A DNA stretch of 64,000 nt. It comes from a virus. Numbering within the stretch: position 1 is the first letter of the stretch; each line of letters starts with the position of its first letter. A model generated the notes under the pieces. The model made no database searches and was not told the DNA's origin. It saw only the letters and a program-made list of their open reading frames with translations. The stretch covers positions 32,001 through 96,000 of IMG/VR virus record IMGVR_UViG_3300026189_000002, one strand, 5' to 3'. The position numbers and the translations under genes are program-made. Below are positions 8,868 to 15,853 of this stretch, in pieces.

Positions 8868-11351
8868 ATGTCTTTTACACTTGAGCAGCTTTCAGAGGGC
8901 ATCCGCGCTCGCCATCTAGGGGCTGAAAACAACAGATTAATTGAAAAATGGACCAAAACCGGTCTTTTACGCGGATTAAACGGTGTTAATCGAGAGTCTA
9001 TGGCTAGACTGCTTGAGAATCAGGCATCCCACGTTATTAAAGAGGCTTCTAGTCTTGGAAATGGTGGTAATGGTGCTTTAACAGCTTCTGGCGACATGAG
9101 AGGCTTCACTAATGTTGCTTTTCCTATCGTTAGAAGAGTATTTGGTGGCCTAATTGCAAATGATCTTGTTTCAATTCAGCCTATGAGTCTTCCTTCAGGA
9201 CTGCTCTTCTATCTTGACTACACAAGAGGCGGAGATCACGGCGTTGGAGATCCTATTAGCGGTCAGTCAAACTCAATATATGATAAAGGTTCTTCTTTAT
9301 ATAATAACCCAACGGGCTCTGCCATAAGAAAAGGTTCAAATGCAGTTGCTGGTCAATATGACCTTGCAGGAACTTCTTTTTCTAGAGCACACGGCAAGAG
9401 GTTGCTGGCTACTGCAGATATTGCAGCAGCTGGAACTGTTTTGGCTGACGGAACAATTGGTCGCGACATTGATGGCGATAACGGCGATAGAACAAAAACT
9501 TTGACAGCAACCGGAGCTGATGCACTTCTCCTTGATTTTGATCAGCAGGTTCTAGACACTGTTGCCGCTGGTGATAGTCATGCATCAGGTTCAAATCCAT
9601 TCTCCTTGCTCTGTGTTAAAACAGAGAACATGACGGATTTAGATCCAACCGCTATCAAGGGCGTTGCGCTACTAGCAAACTCTGGCTCTGCTGAGGGTAT
9701 TGGCGGCGGCGGTGGTCCTGCCTCTGCTACTGTTACAGTTTTAGCTGATTCGTTTGGCGATGCATTTGGAAATGGAAACGAATTAACTATAGGCATAGTT
9801 CTTCCTGCTGCTTTTGTTTCTCCTGAGGCTGGACAAAATGCCGCCGTTCCTGCAGCTCAGACCACAATAAGCGTAATCATTCAAGACTTCGGCGAATTAG
9901 GACCTGGTAATCCTGCACAGAATGCAATACACGTTGATTCTGCCGGAACAGCTAATATTAATGAAGTTGCAACACTTATAGCTAGTGCGCTTAACGGTAC
10001 AGAAGATGCTGCTATTGCTACAAATATAGCAGCTGCTCTAGCAAGTGGCGATGACGACATTGCAGATGGCCCAATTTTTGGTATTACGGCATCTGTGGAT
10101 GGTGCTGTTGTTACAATCTCTCAAGCTCGCGACGGAGATGAACATGCGGTTGGATTAACTGCTGCAGGCCAAGCTCACGATCAAGCTGCTCAAGTAACCC
10201 TAGGCGGTCTAGTCAACGGAAATCTTTCTGGTGGCGTTGATGATGGTACTCCTGTACACCTCAAGGTTGTTGGAAATGACTCAAAGGGTAATCCTTTCCA
10301 AGAGGGTGCTGGTTTGGTTAACATCAGAAGACTAAATGTTCTTGGTACAATGTCGGGCGGCGTCTTTACAGAGAATCCTTTCGCTGACGTAAAAAATGCA
10401 GCTACAGCAATCAGAATGGTTGTTGCAGGCGCTATACCAACAGAGACAATCGAAAAGGCAGAGCTCGATACTTCAGGTTCACTAGTTTACCCTAGAGCTT
10501 CGCAGCTTTCTACAGGAAACGGAGACACTCTAGTTGTTCCTTCTTTTGAGTCTGACTTTAACGGTGCAAACCCGCAGCCTTCAATCCCTGAGATTGACAT
10601 AAAGGTTGAGGCTGTTCCAGTTGTTGCTGAGACTAGAAAGCTAAGAGCAAGATGGTCTCCTGAATTAGCGCAGGACCTTAACGCTTATCACAGCCTAGAT
10701 GCAGAGGTTGAGTTGACTCAGATTCTATCTGAGCAGATTGCCCTAGAGATCGATAGAGAAATTCTCAGCGATCTTTTGACCGGCGCTTCTGCAGCAAACT
10801 TCTTCTGGTCAAGAGCTCCAGGTAAGTTTGTTAACAAGGAAACGGCTGAGGATGGCCCAGCGACCGCTAGCTTTACAGGTACGGTTCGTGAGTGGTATGA
10901 GACTCTAGTAGAGACGATCATAGACGTTGCCAATCAGATTCACAGAAAGACGCTAAGAGGTTCTGCGAACTTCATTGTCTGCGGACCTGATGTTGCGACG
11001 ATTTTAGAAGCTTCAGTTCTTTACAAGCCTAGCTACTCACTTGACGGTGACGGTCAGGTATCAGCGCCGATGGTTATTGGAGCTGATAGAGCAGGAACAT
11101 TGAGCAATAGATTTACAGTCTATAAGGACCCTTATTTCCCACGTAACAAGATCTTGGTCGGTTACAAGGGCGGAAGTTACTTAGAGACAGGTTTTGTATA
11201 CGCTCCTTATGTTCCACTTATCGTTACTCCTACAATCTTCCAGCCTGAAGACTTTACTCCTAGAAAGGGAGTGATGACTCGCTACGGTAAGAAGATGGTA
11301 AGAGCCGATTTTTACGGAACGGTTACTTGCTTGGATATGAATATCATCTAA
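8868..11351 (+). CDS. Major capsid protein paralogue 1 (gp23-like, 827 aa, extra inserted domain)
   Basis: gp23 motifs VSIQPMSLPSGLLFYL, RKLRARWSPELAQDLNAYH, EIDREIL, YAPYVPL and PRKGVMTRYG. Confidence 0.95.
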   Translation: MSFTLEQLSEGIRARHLGAENNRLIEKWTKTGLLRGLNGVNRESMARLLENQASHVIKEASSLGNGGNGALTASGDMRGFTNVAFPIVRRVFGGLIANDLVSIQPMSLPSGLLFYLDYTRGGDHGVGDPISGQSNSIYDKGSSLYNNPTGSAIRKGSNAVAGQYDLAGTSFSRAHGKRLLATADIAAAGTVLADGTIGRDIDGDNGDRTKTLTATGADALLLDFDQQVLDTVAAGDSHASGSNPFSLLCVKTENMTDLDPTAIKGVALLANSGSAEGIGGGGGPASATVTVLADSFGDAFGNGNELTIGIVLPAAFVSPEAGQNAAVPAAQTTISVIIQDFGELGPGNPAQNAIHVDSAGTANINEVATLIASALNGTEDAAIATNIAAALASGDDDIADGPIFGITASVDGAVVTISQARDGDEHAVGLTAAGQAHDQAAQVTLGGLVNGNLSGGVDDGTPVHLKVVGNDSKGNPFQEGAGLVNIRRLNVLGTMSGGVFTENPFADVKNAATAIRMVVAGAIPTETIEKAELDTSGSLVYPRASQLSTGNGDTLVVPSFESDFNGANPQPSIPEIDIKVEAVPVVAETRKLRARWSPELAQDLNAYHSLDAEVELTQILSEQIALEIDREILSDLLTGASAANFFWSRAPGKFVNKETAEDGPATASFTGTVREWYETLVETIIDVANQIHRKTLRGSANFIVCGPDVATILEASVLYKPSYSLDGDGQVSAPMVIGADRAGTLSNRFTVYKDPYFPRNKILVGYKGGSYLETGFVYAPYVPLIVTPTIFQPEDFTPRKGVMTRYGKKMVRADFYGTVTCLDMNII

Positions 11352-11703: not shown

Positions 11704-13677
11704 ATGTCAAACTTTTCATTGGAGCAGTTGACGGAGGGCATTCGCCAGAGACATCTCGGTAGCCAGAACCGTCAGCTCGTAGATAAGTGGGCCAGAACCG
11801 GTCTACTTCGTGGTTTAGAAGGCACAGGCCGTGAAAACATGGCTCGCCTACTAGAAAACCAAGCTTCACAGGTTCTTCGTGAGGCTTCTAGTCTTGGTGA
11901 CGGCGGCAACGGCGCTCTATCTGCTTCTGGCGATATGCGCGGTTTTACCAACGTTGCTTTCCCTATTGTTCGCCGTGTTTTCGGTGGATTGATTGCAAAC
12001 GATCTTGTTTCAATTCAGCCTATGAGCCTTCCTTCAGGACTGCTCTTCTATCTAGATTATACATCAGGCGCTGCTCACGGAGTAAGCCCCGCTCATGCAG
12101 ACGGCAGAAAAGCTGCTGCAGTTAATCCAGAGGGATCTTCTCTTTACAATGGCCCTTCAGGAGCCGGCGTCAGAACAGGCTCAACAGCAATAGGCGGAAA
12201 ATATGACTTAGGCGGTTTAGCCCAGTCTCGTAACATGAGACTAAATGAAGATCTTGATTTCCTAGGAACCGATGGAGAACCTGCAGCTTCTAGAAACTTT
12301 GTTTTCTTGGCCAATAATCATGATCTACCGGTTATACCTAATGCAAATGATCCCGGTCCCGGAGTTGGAACTACTGGTTTAGCCGGTAGACTTCTTCAGT
12401 TTGATGCACAGACAATTGCTGATATTGAAGCTGGACAAGAAGTCAGCTTCTTGCTTATACCGTTTACGGAGCATAACTTCAAAGACTGCGATTCAACTAT
12501 GGTTAAAGAAATCATGGTAGTTGATGATTCAGATGATGCTTCTTTGACTTATTTTCAAGCAGTTCCTACAACTCGCCAAGGTGCTTCCAACGCCTTAAAC
12601 ATTATGAAGCTTAATCAGCTTGTTAAGGTTGAAGATTCACACGGCACTGCCAAGTTGGATGCTCCCAAGATCGCCGCAATGACTCCCGCACCTTTAGCTT
12701 CTGTTGGAGACGATGATGTATGCTTGTTGGTTGCATGCCATAATGACGGTGGTGCTCTTACTAATGCCGATATGAATGATGGTGCTGGCGGTAAGCTAGG
12801 TGTTGTATATCCAGTTGCATCATCCTTATCTGCTGAAGACGGATCAAGCATAGTTGTTCCTTCTTTCGAGTCAGACATGGATGCTTCTAATCCGCAGCCT
12901 ACAATCCCAGAGATTGACATCAAGGTTGAGGCCGTTCCAGTTGTTGCTGAGACTCGCAAGCTACGTGCACGTTGGTCACCAGAGCTCGCTCAGGATCTTA
13001 ACGCTTATCACAGCCTTGACGCTGAGGTTGAGTTGACCCAGATCCTTTCAGAGCAGATTGCTTTGGAAATCGACCGCGAGATCCTTAGTGATCTTCTTAC
13101 TGGCGCTTCTGCAGCAAACTTCTTCTGGTCAAGAGCTCCAGGTAAGTTTGTTAACAAAGAAACAGCAGCTAATGTAGTAAGTTCCGGAGTTCCTTCTTTT
13201 ACAGGAACTGTTCGTGAGTGGTATGAGACTCTCGTAGAAACAATCATTGACGTTGCTAATCAGATTCACCGCAAGACGCTTCGCGGTTCTGCAAACTTTA
13301 TCGTTTGCGGTCCGGACGTTGCAACAATTCTTGAGGCATCTGTTCTTTACAAGCCTTCTTACACCCTTGATGGTGACGGACAGGTTTCGCAGCCAATGGT
13401 TATCGGTGCAGACCGCGCTGGTACACTAAGTAACCGCTTCACTGTTTACAAGGATCCTTACTTCCCAAGAAATAAGATTCTTGTTGGTTACAAGGGCGGA
13501 AGCTACTTGGAGACTGGATTCGTCTATGCTCCTTACGTACCATTGATTGTCACACCTACAATCTTCCAGCCAGAGGATTTCACCCCACGTAAGGGTGTCA
13601 TGACTCGCTACGGCAAGAAGATGGTTCGTGCTGACTTCTACGGCACAGTCACTTGCTTGGATATGAACATTATTTAA
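11704..13677 (+). CDS. Major capsid protein paralogue 2 (gp23-like, 657 aa; probably the dominant shell protein)
   Basis: Same gp23 motifs as paralogue 1. AAGGAG SD. CGT/CGC-biased Arg codons in the core. Has its own promoter motif and terminator. Confidence 0.95.
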   Translation: MSNFSLEQLTEGIRQRHLGSQNRQLVDKWARTGLLRGLEGTGRENMARLLENQASQVLREASSLGDGGNGALSASGDMRGFTNVAFPIVRRVFGGLIANDLVSIQPMSLPSGLLFYLDYTSGAAHGVSPAHADGRKAAAVNPEGSSLYNGPSGAGVRTGSTAIGGKYDLGGLAQSRNMRLNEDLDFLGTDGEPAASRNFVFLANNHDLPVIPNANDPGPGVGTTGLAGRLLQFDAQTIADIEAGQEVSFLLIPFTEHNFKDCDSTMVKEIMVVDDSDDASLTYFQAVPTTRQGASNALNIMKLNQLVKVEDSHGTAKLDAPKIAAMTPAPLASVGDDDVCLLVACHNDGGALTNADMNDGAGGKLGVVYPVASSLSAEDGSSIVVPSFESDMDASNPQPTIPEIDIKVEAVPVVAETRKLRARWSPELAQDLNAYHSLDAEVELTQILSEQIALEIDREILSDLLTGASAANFFWSRAPGKFVNKETAANVVSSGVPSFTGTVREWYETLVETIIDVANQIHRKTLRGSANFIVCGPDVATILEASVLYKPSYTLDGDGQVSQPMVIGADRAGTLSNRFTVYKDPYFPRNKILVGYKGGSYLETGFVYAPYVPLIVTPTIFQPEDFTPRKGVMTRYGKKMVRADFYGTVTCLDMNII

Positions 13678-13701: not shown

Positions 13702-13735
13702 GGAGGGGTCGTTATTCGGCCCCTCCTTTTTTTTT
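13702..13735 (+). terminator. Rho-independent terminator after capsid gene 2
   Basis: GGAGGGGTCG-TTATT-CGGCCCCTCC followed by a T9 run. Confidence 0.9.
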
Positions 13736-13791
13736 CTTATTTTTAAATCTGATATTTATACTTGTCTATTTTTCTGTTTGAGGTTTATACT

Positions 13792-14316
13792 ATGTCTAGC
13801 GAACGTCTAAAGCGATTAAAGTGTCTTGTTGATGAATTGTCAGACAGGGATCGCCAACTAAAAAGCGATTCTGGCATGTTTGTCGATTTTTTTCAAAACT
13901 TTCCTATTCCTGTTACCATGTGGTCTTTAGACGAGTCGGGGAATATATTAGCTAAGCGTGGAAATGCAGTTGTTAAAGAAGCCGGTGCGACTTGCTTAGG
14001 CAATATGTTTTTAGACAATTATTCTAACGAATTTAAGGAAGCCCATAAAAAAGCATACGAAGGACAAAACGTAGAATTTTTTTCTGAGCTAACAGATAAA
14101 GTATATTACACTAGACTTGTTCCTAGAAAATCTGAAGATGAAATAATAGGACTAACAGGAATATCTTGGGATATAACTTCTAATTTTAAAATTTTACAAT
14201 CACTAAAATCCATAATTGAAATGTGCGATAATGAAAACTCTGAAAAAAAAGATATTAAAAAAATCGCTCAAGAATCAATAAACATCAGCAGAATAAAAAA
14301 ACTGTTAGGAGAATAA
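13792..14316 (+). CDS. Stand-alone PAS/PAC domain protein
   Basis: FFQNFPIPVTMWSLDESGNI...HKKAYEG...YYTRLVP...EIIGLTGISWDIT fits the PAS/PAC pattern. GAGG SD before ATG 13792. Confidence 0.7.
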   Translation: MSSERLKRLKCLVDELSDRDRQLKSDSGMFVDFFQNFPIPVTMWSLDESGNILAKRGNAVVKEAGATCLGNMFLDNYSNEFKEAHKKAYEGQNVEFFSELTDKVYYTRLVPRKSEDEIIGLTGISWDITSNFKILQSLKSIIEMCDNENSEKKDIKKIAQESINISRIKKLLGE

Positions 14317-14652
14317 ATGAGCGACAATAATCAAAACGGCTGGAATGAATATTCTAGGCTAGTATTAAAAGAGCTAGAAACTCTTGCAGATGGAATAGAG
14401 TCAGTAAAATCAGAACTTCAAGAAGTCAGACAAGAGATGGCAAAAATGCAAGTTAGAGAAGACCGCATGGAAGAAATAAAACAGTGGAAAGAAAGAGTTG
14501 ACGATGTTGCTTCTCCGATACAACTAAAAGAACTAGTTAACGAAGTAAGTTCCCTTAAAGAATTTAAAACTAGGGCTATAACAATTTTTGCAGTCGTACA
14601 GTTTATAATGGCGTTTTCTGTATGGTATGTTAAATTCTTTCCGACAGGTTAA
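14317..14652 (+). CDS. Coiled-coil protein with C-terminal transmembrane helix (XhlA/holin-like topology)
   Basis: Heptad region followed by AITIFAVVQFIMAFSVWYV. AGGAG SD, abuts the PAS gene. Confidence 0.55.
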   Translation: MSDNNQNGWNEYSRLVLKELETLADGIESVKSELQEVRQEMAKMQVREDRMEEIKQWKERVDDVASPIQLKELVNEVSSLKEFKTRAITIFAVVQFIMAFSVWYVKFFPTG

Positions 14653-14686
14653 TTTATGATCATATTTACTTTTATGGAACTGCAAC

Positions 14687-15853
14687 ATGGCTAATTTTTT
14701 AAACACACAAAATCCTACCCCTTTTGGATTTTTTGATTCTGATAGGGACTTTCAAGTAGAAGCAGACTCCATGGTTGTATTTGTTAAAAGAAAACTAGGC
14801 GACGATATACTCAGCGTAGAGTTAACTAATAAACAAATATGGGCTGGTTTCGAAGAATCTATGCTTGAATACAGCTCTATTATAAATCAATACCAAGCGA
14901 AATCTCAACTTTCTAATCTACTAGGTGAAGCCACAGGTTCTTTAGAAGGAATGGAGAATAAGTTTTTTAGAGAGAGCGTAGAGTTTATGCTTAGAAGAGC
15001 AGAGCCCTATGCTATGGAAGCCGGCTTAGGTGGATCTTTTAATATGATGTCTGGTTCTATAAAGCTAGAAAAAGGCAGGCAGGATTACGATATTTATACA
15101 GAGCTAAAAGATTCAGATGGAACTCCTCTTTTCGAAAGAGAAGATACGCCCGACTCAAAAATGAAAATAATGGAAGTATTTCACTTTTCTCCTCAGGCGG
15201 CATATAGATTTTTTGATTCTACATCGGCTATAAACTATTTAAATAACGAATTTTCTTTTGAGTCTTTTACGCCTGAAACTGTATTTTACGTTCTTCCAGT
15301 TTTTGAAGATGTTCTTAGAGGCGGGATGTTAGATATGTCTTCTAGGGTTAGAAGATCTAACTATTCATATAAAATAACAGGCACCAAGATAAGAATATAT
15401 CCAGTTCCAACTCAAGAAAACCCCCAGTCTTTATTTTTAAGAGTTCATTTTGCACCGAATGTTTCTAATCCATCGTTTAAAGACAGTTCTATTTCAGGGG
15501 TTAGTAATCTGTCGAATGTTCCTTACGGAAGAATACAGTTCAGCGGGATAAATTCAATAGGCAGACAATGGGTTAGACAATTTTGCTTAGCAAACTGCAA
15601 AGAGTTATTAGGCATGGTTAGATCTAAGTTTTCTAGCGTTCCAATACCCGGAAGCGATCTGCAGTTGAACGGAACTGATTTAATAGCTCAAGGAAGAGAA
15701 GATAAAGAATCACTGAGAGTAAAGTTGTCTGAAATGCTAGATAGTATGACTTACAGTAAGATGCTTGAAGACGAAGCTCAAGCTTCAGAAAACTTAACGA
15801 CTATACTAAAGAAATTGCCTATTCCCAATGGAAAAGCTATAATAGTAGGATAA
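14687..15853 (+). CDS. Neck protein (gp13-like head-tail adaptor)
   Basis: KRKLG...VELT..QI at the N-terminus and WVRQFCLA..KELLG..RSKF...LNG near the C-terminus. Position after the capsid genes. Confidence 0.8.
   Translation: MANFLNTQNPTPFGFFDSDRDFQVEADSMVVFVKRKLGDDILSVELTNKQIWAGFEESMLEYSSIINQYQAKSQLSNLLGEATGSLEGMENKFFRESVEFMLRRAEPYAMEAGLGGSFNMMSGSIKLEKGRQDYDIYTELKDSDGTPLFEREDTPDSKMKIMEVFHFSPQAAYRFFDSTSAINYLNNEFSFESFTPETVFYVLPVFEDVLRGGMLDMSSRVRRSNYSYKITGTKIRIYPVPTQENPQSLFLRVHFAPNVSNPSFKDSSISGVSNLSNVPYGRIQFSGINSIGRQWVRQFCLANCKELLGMVRSKFSSVPIPGSDLQLNGTDLIAQGREDKESLRVKLSEMLDSMTYSKMLEDEAQASENLTTILKKLPIPNGKAIIVG

What the first reader, a model, noticed from the sequence alone, without database searches (positions are those of the whole stretch)
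13752..14652. Stand-alone PAS sensor paired with a membrane-anchored coiled-coil protein in the morphogenesis region
Seen: a two-gene unit between late motifs (13752 and 14662). The first gene is a PAS/PAC domain flanked by helices with no kinase or cyclase output. The second abuts it and has a coiled coil plus a C-terminal TM helix. Known: PAS domains sense ligands, redox or light; XhlA-type membrane proteins with this topology act in lysis. Inference: a late sensing module that may tune lysis timing or jam host PAS kinases.
Basis: partly seen in the sequence, partly recalled or inferred. Interest (0 to 1): 0.7.

Follow-up and report, generated by a model that had tools for sequence, protein, structure and literature searches.

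The report
PAS protein plus tail-anchored membrane partner
An uncultured giant marine T4-like phage carries a late-expressed gene pair, a soluble PAS-fold sensor-type protein and a small coiled-coil protein anchored in the membrane by its tail; the pair is always linked across hundreds of marine phage contigs and matches no described family, and its function is still unknown.

Summary
Gene A (13792-14316, 174 aa) is a stand-alone PAS protein: N-terminal helix, PAS core, C-terminal helices. The evidence is an AlphaFold model (pLDDT 83), VIA Z-scores of 10-11 to solved PAS domains, and PAS_4 hits in 27 of 45 homologues. Gene B (14317-14652, 111 aa) abuts it (TAAATG). It has about six clean heptads, an invariant Ser-Pro hinge and one C-terminal transmembrane helix, so it is tail-anchored with its N-terminus in the cytoplasm.

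The pair has its own ATANTTA motif, which I show is strongly enriched before genes on the coding strand and is probably this phage's late promoter. A terminator lies upstream.

New points:
- B is the constant part. I found 1565 homologues and 342 IMG/VR loci, and none in cultured phages.
- In 70 of 70 evaluable loci a small gene abuts B upstream. Only about 60% of these carry the PAS core; the rest are 71-93-aa helical proteins, and only three of these (the DRD type) share A's N-terminal helix with good support.
- The cassette sits in at least three genome contexts.

The XhlA, T4 RIII, T4 gp40 and ssr2422 tests all failed. A separate holin/spanin-like cassette lies 55 kb away.

Best reading (about 0.4): a membrane-tethered complex acting late, modulated by the PAS domain. 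Lysis timing is the leading output but is unproven (about 0.25).

The parts
13702..13735 (+). Intrinsic terminator after capsid gene 2 (10-bp GC-rich stem followed by a T run)
   Evidence: sequence
13752..13758 (+). ATATTTA, an instance of ATANTTA, the candidate late promoter of the pair, 40 nt before the start codon
   Evidence: Enrichment and strand bias. The motif occurs upstream of the pair in 39 of 53 unique related loci, against 7.5% of control windows.
13780..13783 (+). GAGG ribosome-binding site of gene A
   Evidence: sequence
13792..14316 (+). Gene A: 174-aa cytoplasmic stand-alone PAS protein (the partner)
13795..13899 (+). A residues 2-36: N-terminal helix with the L..L..LV..LSDRD.QLK motif. 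A matching N-terminal helix motif occurs in the PAS-less partners: well supported for the three DRD-type short forms, weakly for the commoner C..W type.
   Evidence: AF2. hhalign of DRD-type short partners against the PAS family: probability 96%, E 4.6e-9. All short forms: probability 77%.
13906..14181 (+). A residues 39-130: PAS core (strands 41-47, 51-56, 94-99, 104-114, 117-127; F-alpha-like helix 75-89 carrying H85, invariant in the 45 aligned homologues)
14176..14307 (+). A residues 129-172: C-terminal helices after the WDIT motif
14307..14311 (+). AGGAG ribosome-binding site of gene B, inside the end of gene A; stop and start abut (TAAATG), suggesting translational coupling
   Evidence: Sequence. 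In related loci the stop-to-start offset is -16 to +15 nt.
14317..14652 (+). Gene B: 111-aa tail-anchored coiled-coil membrane protein, the invariant member of the cassette
14335..14508 (+). B residues 7-64: cytoplasmic helix, with the invariant head NGW.EYS.LVL.ELE.L followed by about six 3-4 heptads
   Evidence: heptads read directly from the sequence
14512..14517 (+). B residues S66-P67: invariant hinge between the two helices
14572..14634 (+). B residues 86-106: single C-terminal transmembrane helix with one conserved face (A87, F91, Q95, M98)
14662..14668 (+). ATATTTA, the next ATANTTA motif, 25 nt before the head-tail adaptor gene; marks the downstream edge of the unit
14687..15853 (+). 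Neighbour: head-tail adaptor gene (phrog_211). Not part of the cassette.

Best explanation
This is a late-transcribed, translationally coupled two-gene accessory cassette of uncultured marine T4-like myophages.

Gene B makes a tail-anchored inner-membrane protein. About 85 residues of helix/coiled coil face the cytoplasm, followed by a Ser-Pro hinge and one C-terminal TMD. The TMD has a conserved polar face, which suggests packing inside the membrane.

Gene A makes B's soluble partner. Across the family, the best-retained part of the partner appears to be an N-terminal amphipathic helix. In this phage, and in about 60% of loci, a complete PAS domain sits between that helix and the C-terminal helices.

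Inferred mechanism: the partner docks on B's cytoplasmic coiled coil, giving a membrane-tethered complex. Where a PAS domain is present, a cytoplasmic cue (ligand, redox or energy state) changes the docking or oligomeric state and so gates what B does at the membrane late in infection.

Most likely output: control of the timing of membrane permeabilisation or lysis, acting as a regulator or co-factor rather than as the holin itself.

Shown: the folds, the topology prediction, the linkage, the optional PAS core, the promoter-like motif and the distribution. Inferred: A-B binding, sensing by the PAS domain, and the output.

Sub-odds: A and B act as one complex, 0.7. The PAS domain acts as a regulatory input, 0.5. 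The output is lysis timing, 0.25.
For: Linkage. All 27 PAS loci carry B directly downstream. All 70 evaluable B loci carry an abutting or overlapping upstream partner, 43 long and 27 short.

The partner's N-helix appears in PAS-less forms. hhalign gives probability 96%, E 4.6e-9 for the three DRD-type short partners, but only 77% for all short forms pooled. The PAS HMM hits the short ORFs.

Mobility. The cassette moves as a unit between at least three contexts: capsid to adaptor, after ThyX, and others.

Conservation. B is 57-69% identical across phages whose partner is only 34-43% identical. The conserved N-terminal head, hinge and TMD face persist across 84 representatives that share <=50% identity.

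Late expression. The ATANTTA motif lies before the pair here and in 39 of 53 unique loci, against 7.5% of controls, including the ThyX contexts. The same motif precedes the capsid leader, adaptor, sheath and tube genes and the holin-like gene.

PAS fold.

Lysis lead (weak). B has the same topology as XhlA/SPP1 gp24.1, which act as co-holins (PMC6316719). The Atlas's nearest named cluster is XhlA, score 0.91 with 166 shared features. In ThyX contexts an Amidase_2 endolysin-type gene lies 2.4-3.3 kb upstream.
Against: - No direct evidence of A-B binding.
- No holin or endolysin is adjacent to the pair in the capsid context. In relative G002 the amidase is 39 kb away.
- The phage has a separate late-motif-driven cassette 55 kb downstream: a 67-aa two-TMD protein, a 117-aa protein with an N-terminal TMD and a coiled coil, and a 150-aa protein with a signal sequence and a C-terminal TMD. 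This could supply all canonical lysis functions.
- The XhlA HMM does not hit B, and T4 RIII shows no similarity to the partner.
- B's high conservation is unusual for holins.
- B has no charged C-terminal tail.
- The co-variation between B's head (GWN versus GWS/A) and the partner type follows two lineages, so it is not independent evidence.
Confidence: 0.4

Rival explanations
1. Host take-over at the membrane. B's invariant cytoplasmic head binds and inhibits or redirects a conserved host inner-membrane or thylakoid machine (divisome, FtsH, Sec/YidC, respiratory or photosynthetic complexes). The partner acts as a regulator or adaptor.
For: B's cytoplasmic head is extremely conserved across phages that probably infect different hosts, including a phage-like contig (carrying a DUF3310-like gene) in a Prochlorococcus single-cell genome. 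The cassette is accessory and mobile, and it sits in a slot that holds PhoH and other auxiliary genes in cultured relatives. Cyanobacteria have their own tail-anchored coiled-coil proteins of the same build, the ssr2422 family.
Against: Take-over genes are usually early, whereas the pair carries the motif shared with structural genes. No homology to ssr2422 was shown (hhalign probability 38%, reversed control 17%). No candidate target has been identified.
Confidence: 0.2
2. Assembly or packaging anchor. B tethers a late process (prohead initiation, packaging, or tail/neck joining) to the cytoplasmic face of the membrane, as a functional analogue of T4 gp40. The partner acts as an adaptor.
For: Late-type motif. 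The most common position is between the major capsid and head-tail adaptor genes (38 of 70 evaluable loci had a capsid gene upstream within the fetched flank). B is conserved at a level similar to structural proteins. All contexts examined look T4-like.
Against: The pair is absent from all 50,697 cultured phage records, including the nearest T4-like relatives, so it is not a core assembly factor. It also occurs next to ThyX and MazG-type genes, far from head genes. There is no similarity to T4 gp40, which lacks a TMD.
Confidence: 0.15
3. Superinfection exclusion or inter-phage conflict. This would be a cytoplasmic sensor (A) plus a membrane effector (B), following the RexA/RexB logic: the membrane is depolarised or DNA entry blocked when a competitor is sensed.
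For: Two-component sensor-plus-membrane-effector architecture, accessory and mobile distribution, and a conserved polar face in the TMD.
Against: PADLOC gives only coiled-coil noise. Late expression is a poor fit for exclusion. The short partners have no recognisable sensing domain.
Confidence: 0.1
4. One reading: the PAS protein acts as a decoy that heterodimerises with host PAS histidine kinases and jams them, and B is incidental.
For: PAS domains do dimerise. The flanking helices resemble the N-cap and J-alpha helices of sensor kinases.
Against: About 40% of loci keep B and the partner's helices but have no PAS core, so the conserved function cannot depend on PAS-PAS decoying. The closest relatives are all viral.
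Confidence: 0.03

Closest known systems
PAS domains of bacterial sensor proteins (Pfam PAS_4/PAS clan; e.g. TodS PAS1 5hwv, SrrB 7jl6, ThkA 3a0s, Rv1364c 3kx0)
   Same: Same fold: Z 10-11 over the whole core. Canonical motifs are present (the Asn of the '.GN.' loop, and G...WDIT at the last strand). Flanking N-cap and C-terminal helices are present.
   Different: No kinase, cyclase or DNA-binding output on the same chain. It is instead paired with a separate tail-anchored membrane protein. Sequence similarity is marginal (window protein E 0.07). The ligand is unknown.
Stand-alone 'PAS domain' proteins of uncultured phages in BFVD (e.g. A0A6J5KZZ3, 169 aa; A0A8D9CBR8, 165 aa)
   Same: Similar size, and they are the top structural matches among viral proteins (E 2.8e-6). 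This shows that small PAS-only proteins recur in phages.
   Different: Only 14-19% identity. Their neighbours were not examined. As far as my searches reached, none has been studied.
XhlA (PBSX) / SPP1 gp24.1 co-holins, Pfam PF10779
   Same: Small phage protein with a helical N-terminal part and a single C-terminal TMD (PMC6316719). It is the nearest named cluster by language-model features, at 0.91.
   Different: The PF10779 HMM does not hit B at E<=10. B is not next to a two-TMD holin or an endolysin. XhlA is known from phages of Gram-positive hosts and has no PAS or helical partner gene.
T4 RIII (cytoplasmic antiholin) with holin T
   Same: The logic is similar: an 82-aa helical cytoplasmic protein acts on the cytoplasmic part of a single-TMD membrane protein to set lysis timing. 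It is similar in size to the short partners (71-93 aa).
   Different: No sequence similarity (hhalign probability 0.2%). T has a large periplasmic domain, whereas B has none. The T4 genes are not adjacent.
Cellular tail-anchored coiled-coil proteins: the cyanobacterial ssr2422 family (NF053525); E. coli ElaB/YqjD (recalled, not tested)
   Same: 70-110 aa, an N-terminal coiled coil, one C-terminal TMD containing a Gln.
   Different: Below the family cut-off (14.9 versus 38 bits). hhalign probability is 38% against 17% for the reversed control. The resemblance is in architecture only.

Membership tests
PAS fold (Pfam clan PAS_Fold, PAS_4 PF08448) | Five-stranded antiparallel sheet flanked by helices, superposable on solved PAS domains | tested here: met
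   AF2 pLDDT 83. VIA Z 10.9-9.0 for the top 50 entries, all PAS/LOV/phytochrome-PAS domains, rmsd 2.4-3.5 A. Foldseek E down to 1.2e-6.
PAS fold (Pfam clan PAS_Fold, PAS_4 PF08448) | Profile-HMM match above the curated cut-off | tested here: inconclusive
   The window protein scores 13.8 bits against a cut-off of 23.1. 27 of 45 homologues match PAS_4, best E 2.6e-5. The distant L111 partner hits TIGR00229 at E 0.0011, 19.1 bits against 22.9.
PAS sensor with a bound cofactor (heme, flavin) | Conserved ligating residue in the pocket (proximal His on F-alpha for heme; Cys in NCRFL for LOV) | tested here: inconclusive
   H85 on helix 75-89 is invariant in 45 sequences but is shifted by one residue in the L078-type partner. 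There is no LOV Cys motif. No coordinates or docking were available.
XhlA (PF10779) | Match to the family HMM | tested here: not met
   In a six-frame search of the phage record, PF10779 gives no hit at gene B even at E<=10. It is not among the Pfam hits at E<=1.
XhlA (PF10779) | Single C-terminal TMD after a helical N-terminal part | tested here: met
XhlA (PF10779) | Encoded in a lysis cassette beside a two-TMD holin and an endolysin | tested here: not met
   The neighbours are the capsid and adaptor genes. The holin/spanin-like genes lie 55 kb away. No Amidase_2 was found in the record (the record is only 34% complete).
Holin (generic) | Small membrane protein with a charged C-terminal tail, usually in a lysis cassette | tested here: not met
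   There is one TMD but only about 5 residues after it. No lysis neighbours.
i-spanin (Rz-like) | N-terminal TMD with a periplasmic coiled coil, and an o-spanin gene embedded or adjacent | tested here: not met
   The TMD is C-terminal and the positive charges lie on its N side. There is no lipoprotein gene beside it.
T4 RIII antiholin | Sequence or profile similarity to RIII | tested here: not met
   hhalign probability 0.2% (short partners) and 0.0% (PAS partners).
T4 gp40 head-vertex assembly chaperone | Sequence or profile similarity to gp40 | tested here: not met
   hhalign probability 0.1%. gp40 has no TMD (KD19 maximum 0.83).
ssr2422 thylakoid membrane protein family (NF053525) | HMM score above the cut-off, or profile-profile homology | tested here: not met
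   14.9 bits against 38. hhalign probability 38% against 17% for the reversed control.
Anti-phage defence proteins (PADLOC) | Match to any defence-system model | tested here: not met
   Only coiled-coil-type weak hits, E >= 7e-4.

The most novel reading that the evidence does not exclude
The cassette is a lysis or membrane 'clock input'. A PAS sensor, tethered to the inner membrane through a dedicated tail-anchored coiled-coil protein, would let marine T4-like phages tune the moment of membrane permeabilisation to the host's redox, energy or light state. PAS-less lineages would have lost the sensory input but kept the timer. This would be a new class of lysis regulator, unrelated to RI/RIII, and the first assigned function for a phage stand-alone PAS protein.
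Probability: 0.15. Interest if true: 0.8.

Novelty: new variant of a known kind. Interest (0 to 1): 0.55.

Why it matters
The membrane protein family is large: 1565 proteins at 90% clustering, 509 clusters at 50% identity and 342 IMG/VR loci. It is strongly conserved, is found only in uncultured marine phages, and has no Pfam, PHROG or NCBIfam home. That makes it a clear, testable piece of viral dark matter.

The partner comes with or without a PAS core, which is a natural experiment. The family can be used to ask what a sensory domain adds to a phage late function.

If the output is lysis timing or a host membrane process, it would show how ocean phages couple their late programme to host physiology. 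If not, the pair still defines a new tail-anchored phage membrane protein with an obligate cytoplasmic partner.

Tried and rejected
- **Complex prediction.** PAS (alignment A1) with B residues 1-86 (alignment A2): no verdict, ipSAE 0.00 in two runs, controls not run. This is no evidence either way.
I used the search for related loci instead.
- **Cultured phages.** blastn and tblastn of A, of B and of two distant B relatives found no match.
- **Solved structures.** Sequence and profile searches of the PDB with A found nothing.
- **Family scans of B.** Pfam, PHROG, NCBIfam and PADLOC gave only generic coiled-coil noise, e.g. ABC_tran_CTD, FlgM, ZapB, DivIC, Rad50, LmuB.
- **Foldseek of the B model against BFVD:** no match.
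- **DUF7201 lead from the Atlas:** no hit in the record.
- **Fusion protein P0054 (293 aa, A+B).** The junction reads like a frameshifted C-terminus of A, and it comes from a single contig. I do not use it as Rosetta-stone evidence.
- **Longer relatives of A:** none found (weak evidence).
- **Co-variation of B's GWN/GWS head with partner type.** It tracks two lineages, so it is not independent.
- **RNA libraries.** Only short contigs were recovered: 13702-13852 at 150 of 151 identity, and a 93%-identical relative of B. They show presence in RNA libraries, not transcription, and no transcript ends.
- **Literature searches** found no study of a phage PAS plus tail-anchored pair.

Full report
**Setting.** The window is part of a 113-kb IMG/VR virus record that CheckV estimates to be 34% complete. 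It is a giant marine T4-like myophage. All genes lie on the + strand: two gp23-type capsid genes (8868-11351 and 11704-13677), then the finding, then a head-tail adaptor (phrog_211) and the tail sheath genes. Near-identical DNA occurs in marine metagenomes from many studies.

**The observation.**

Gene A is best read from ATG 13792, with GAGG at 13780-13783, to 14316 (174 aa). Its closest homologues begin at the same Met. Gene B runs 14317-14652 (111 aa). Its ATG follows A's TAA with no gap, and AGGAG lies 5 nt upstream, which is a layout typical of translational coupling.

A strong terminator (13702-13735) closes the capsid gene. Three counts support this as a promoter-like motif:
- On the + strand of the window, 11 of 30 copies fall in the 5.4% of the window that is intergenic, each shortly before a gene. 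Only 1 intergenic copy lies on the - strand.
- In the whole record, 16 of 52 copies are intergenic.
- These copies precede the capsid-2 leader, A, the adaptor, sheath and tube genes and, outside the window, a holin-like gene.

I read ATANTTA as this lineage's late promoter. That is an inference from enrichment, strand bias and the kind of genes it precedes.

**Gene A is a PAS protein.**
- Alone it scores only E 0.07 against PAS_4, but 27 of its 45 aligned homologues hit PAS_4, best E 2.6e-5.
- The AlphaFold model (pLDDT 83) has helix 2-36, a five-stranded PAS core at 41-127 with an F-alpha-like helix at 75-89, and helices 129-172.
- Foldseek returns dozens of PAS domains.
- VIA-align gives Z 10-11 at 2.4-3.5 A rmsd over residues 39-130.
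- Language-model neighbours are all PAS.
- There is no second domain, no TMD (KD19 maximum 0.8), and no longer relatives were found.
- Among viral models, the best matches are other small 'PAS domain' proteins of uncultured phages.
- H85 on the F-alpha-like helix is invariant in the 45 sequences, which is where heme-PAS proteins place their proximal His (established knowledge). It is displaced by one residue in a divergent subgroup, so this is only a lead.

**Gene B is a tail-anchored coiled-coil protein.**
- The sequence shows an unbroken 3-4 hydrophobic spacing from L20 to V64.
- AF2 gives helices 7-64 and 67-107, broken at the invariant S66-P67.
- Residues 87-105 reach KD19 = 2.04.
- Lys and Arg residues lie before the TMD and only about 5 residues follow it, so the bulk of the protein should face the cytoplasm.
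- Across 84 representatives that share no more than 50% identity with one another, three blocks stay conserved: the head NGW.EYS.LVL.ELE.L, the WK..DEV.SP.Q hinge, and LK.FKT.A.T.F...Q running into the TMD. The conserved TMD residues (87, 91, 95, 98) lie on one helical face, which argues for packing in the membrane rather than simple anchoring (inference).

**Linkage, and what is constant.**
- Searching with A found 27 IMG/VR loci. All have the order capsid, A, B, adaptor, with A and B abutting.
- Searching with B found far more: 1565 proteins, 342 IMG/VR loci and 509 clusters at 50% identity.
- Of the best 80 loci, 70 have enough upstream sequence to evaluate, and every one has a small gene abutting or overlapping B (offset -16 to +15 nt). 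43 of these are PAS-type (173-213 aa) and 27 are short helical proteins of 71-93 aa.
- Short partners of the 'DRD' type match A's N-terminal helix at hhalign probability 96%, E 4.6e-9. All short forms taken together reach 77%. A colinear match to A's C-terminal helices is not significant.
- A phage-like contig in a Prochlorococcus single-cell genome carries a 138-aa N-helix-plus-PAS partner overlapping a 46%-identical B.
- So B plus an abutting small partner gene is the constant unit; a shared N-helix is well supported only for the DRD-type partners. The PAS core is an optional module that a weakly resolved B tree suggests was gained or lost several times (at least 5 changes; well-supported branches force only 1).
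- B is 57-69% identical where A is 34-43%.

**Context.**
- The cassette occurs between the capsid and adaptor genes, with either partner type.
- It also occurs directly after ThyX in a block with an Amidase_2/PG-binding endolysin-type gene, a glutamine-synthetase-like gene and a thioesterase (short partners only), and in other places.
- In cultured relatives, the capsid-to-adaptor gap holds other accessory genes such as PhoH.
- ATANTTA lies upstream of the pair in 39 of 53 unique loci, against 7.5% of random windows, including the ThyX contexts.
- Neither protein, nor distant relatives of B, is found in 50,697 cultured phage records.

**Tests of known families.**

| Candidate | Test | Result |
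|---|---|---|
| XhlA (PF10779) | HMM on gene B | No hit at E<=10 |
| XhlA | Atlas language-model features | Nearest named cluster, 0.91, 166 shared features: a lead only |
| T4 RIII | hhalign | Probability below 1% |
| T4 gp40 | hhalign | Probability below 1%; gp40 has no TMD |
| ssr2422 family | Architecture | Same build as B |
| ssr2422 family | hhalign | Probability 38%, reversed control 17% |
| PADLOC, PHROGs, NCBIfam | Family scans | Coiled-coil noise only |

**Where the lysis genes probably are.** Outside the window, at record positions 101434-102428, an ATACTTA motif precedes three genes:
- a 67-aa protein with two TMDs;
- a 117-aa protein with an N-terminal TMD and a coiled coil (Rz-like spanin, E 0.005);
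- an overlapping 150-aa protein with an N-terminal signal sequence and a C-terminal TMD, which is a u-spanin-like build.

The 150-aa protein is conserved in three relatives, far from their A-B pairs. This makes it unlikely that B is the holin. It does not exclude a regulator: T4's lysis regulators are also scattered across its genome (established knowledge).

**Mechanism.** I commit to a membrane-tethered complex. The partner docks by its N-helix on B's cytoplasmic coiled coil. The PAS domain, where present, modulates this in response to a cytoplasmic cue. B then acts at the inner membrane late in infection. My odds are about 0.7 that A and B work as a complex, 0.5 that the PAS domain is a regulatory input, and 0.25 that the output is lysis timing. 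The rivals are host membrane take-over (0.2), an assembly or packaging anchor (0.15), superinfection exclusion (0.1) and kinase jamming (0.03). The one complex prediction gave no verdict. RNA-library contigs show presence only.

**Novelty.** The PAS fold and tail-anchored coiled coils are each known, and small PAS-only phage proteins have been annotated before. The obligate two-gene module, its optional PAS core, its breadth in marine viromes and its absence from every family library and cultured phage are new as far as these searches reach.

Noticed in passing
window 3988, 7122, 11434, 13752, 14662, 17734, 17796, 29509, 31012, 31268, 46460: ATANTTA on the + strand is strongly enriched in intergenic DNA just upstream of genes (11 of 30 copies lie in 5.4% of the window; 1 intergenic copy on the - strand). 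It is probably this lineage's late promoter and differs from T4's TATAAATA.
   Followed up: partly
L116:5434-6425 (record 101434-102428, outside the window): Candidate lysis cassette behind an ATACTTA motif. It encodes a 67-aa two-TMD holin-like protein, a 117-aa protein with an N-terminal TMD and a coiled coil (phrog_312 Rz-like spanin, E 0.005), and an overlapping 150-aa protein with an N-terminal signal sequence and a C-terminal TMD (u-spanin-like). The 150-aa protein is conserved in relatives G001-G003.
   Followed up: partly
L111:3546-4309 (Prochlorococcus sp. AG-409-L21 single-cell genome contig): A divergent version of the cassette, a 138-aa N-helix-plus-PAS partner overlapping a 116-aa B homologue, sits on a phage-like contig in a Prochlorococcus SAG. 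This hints that some carriers infect picocyanobacteria.
   Followed up: partly
L068:648-4195, L069, L085, L092, L098: In a second context the cassette follows ThyX in a block with a PG_binding_1 + Amidase_2 endolysin-type gene, a glutamine-synthetase-like gene and a 4HBT thioesterase. In L069, two small membrane or lipoprotein-like ORFs lie between ThyX and the pair.
   Followed up: partly
L117 and L118 (Flavobacterium phage immuto, Microcystis phage Mel-JY01): In cultured T4-like relatives, the gap between the major capsid gene and the head-completion/adaptor gene holds variable accessory genes (PhoH and small hypothetical genes). This slot looks like a hot spot for auxiliary cassettes.
   Followed up: no
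P0054 (metagenome protein, 293 aa): A single-contig protein joins an A homologue to a B homologue. The junction reads like a frameshifted end of A, so it is probably an assembly or sequencing artefact rather than a natural fusion.
   Followed up: partly
L123-L142 (cyanobacterial genomes): The ssr2422 family (NF053525) consists of multi-copy tail-anchored coiled-coil proteins of 70-110 aa, with variable heptad-repeat numbers and a near-invariant TMD (YQ.ATQWVVQLAF.LIASAT). In 61 sampled cyanobacterial genomes, 28 scored above the cut-off.
   Followed up: partly
window 13702-13852: An RNA-library contig (run X16) matches 150 of 151 bases across the terminator, the ATATTTA motif and the start of gene A. 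If it is RNA, it would mean read-through from the capsid gene. It may also be DNA carried over into the library.
   Followed up: no
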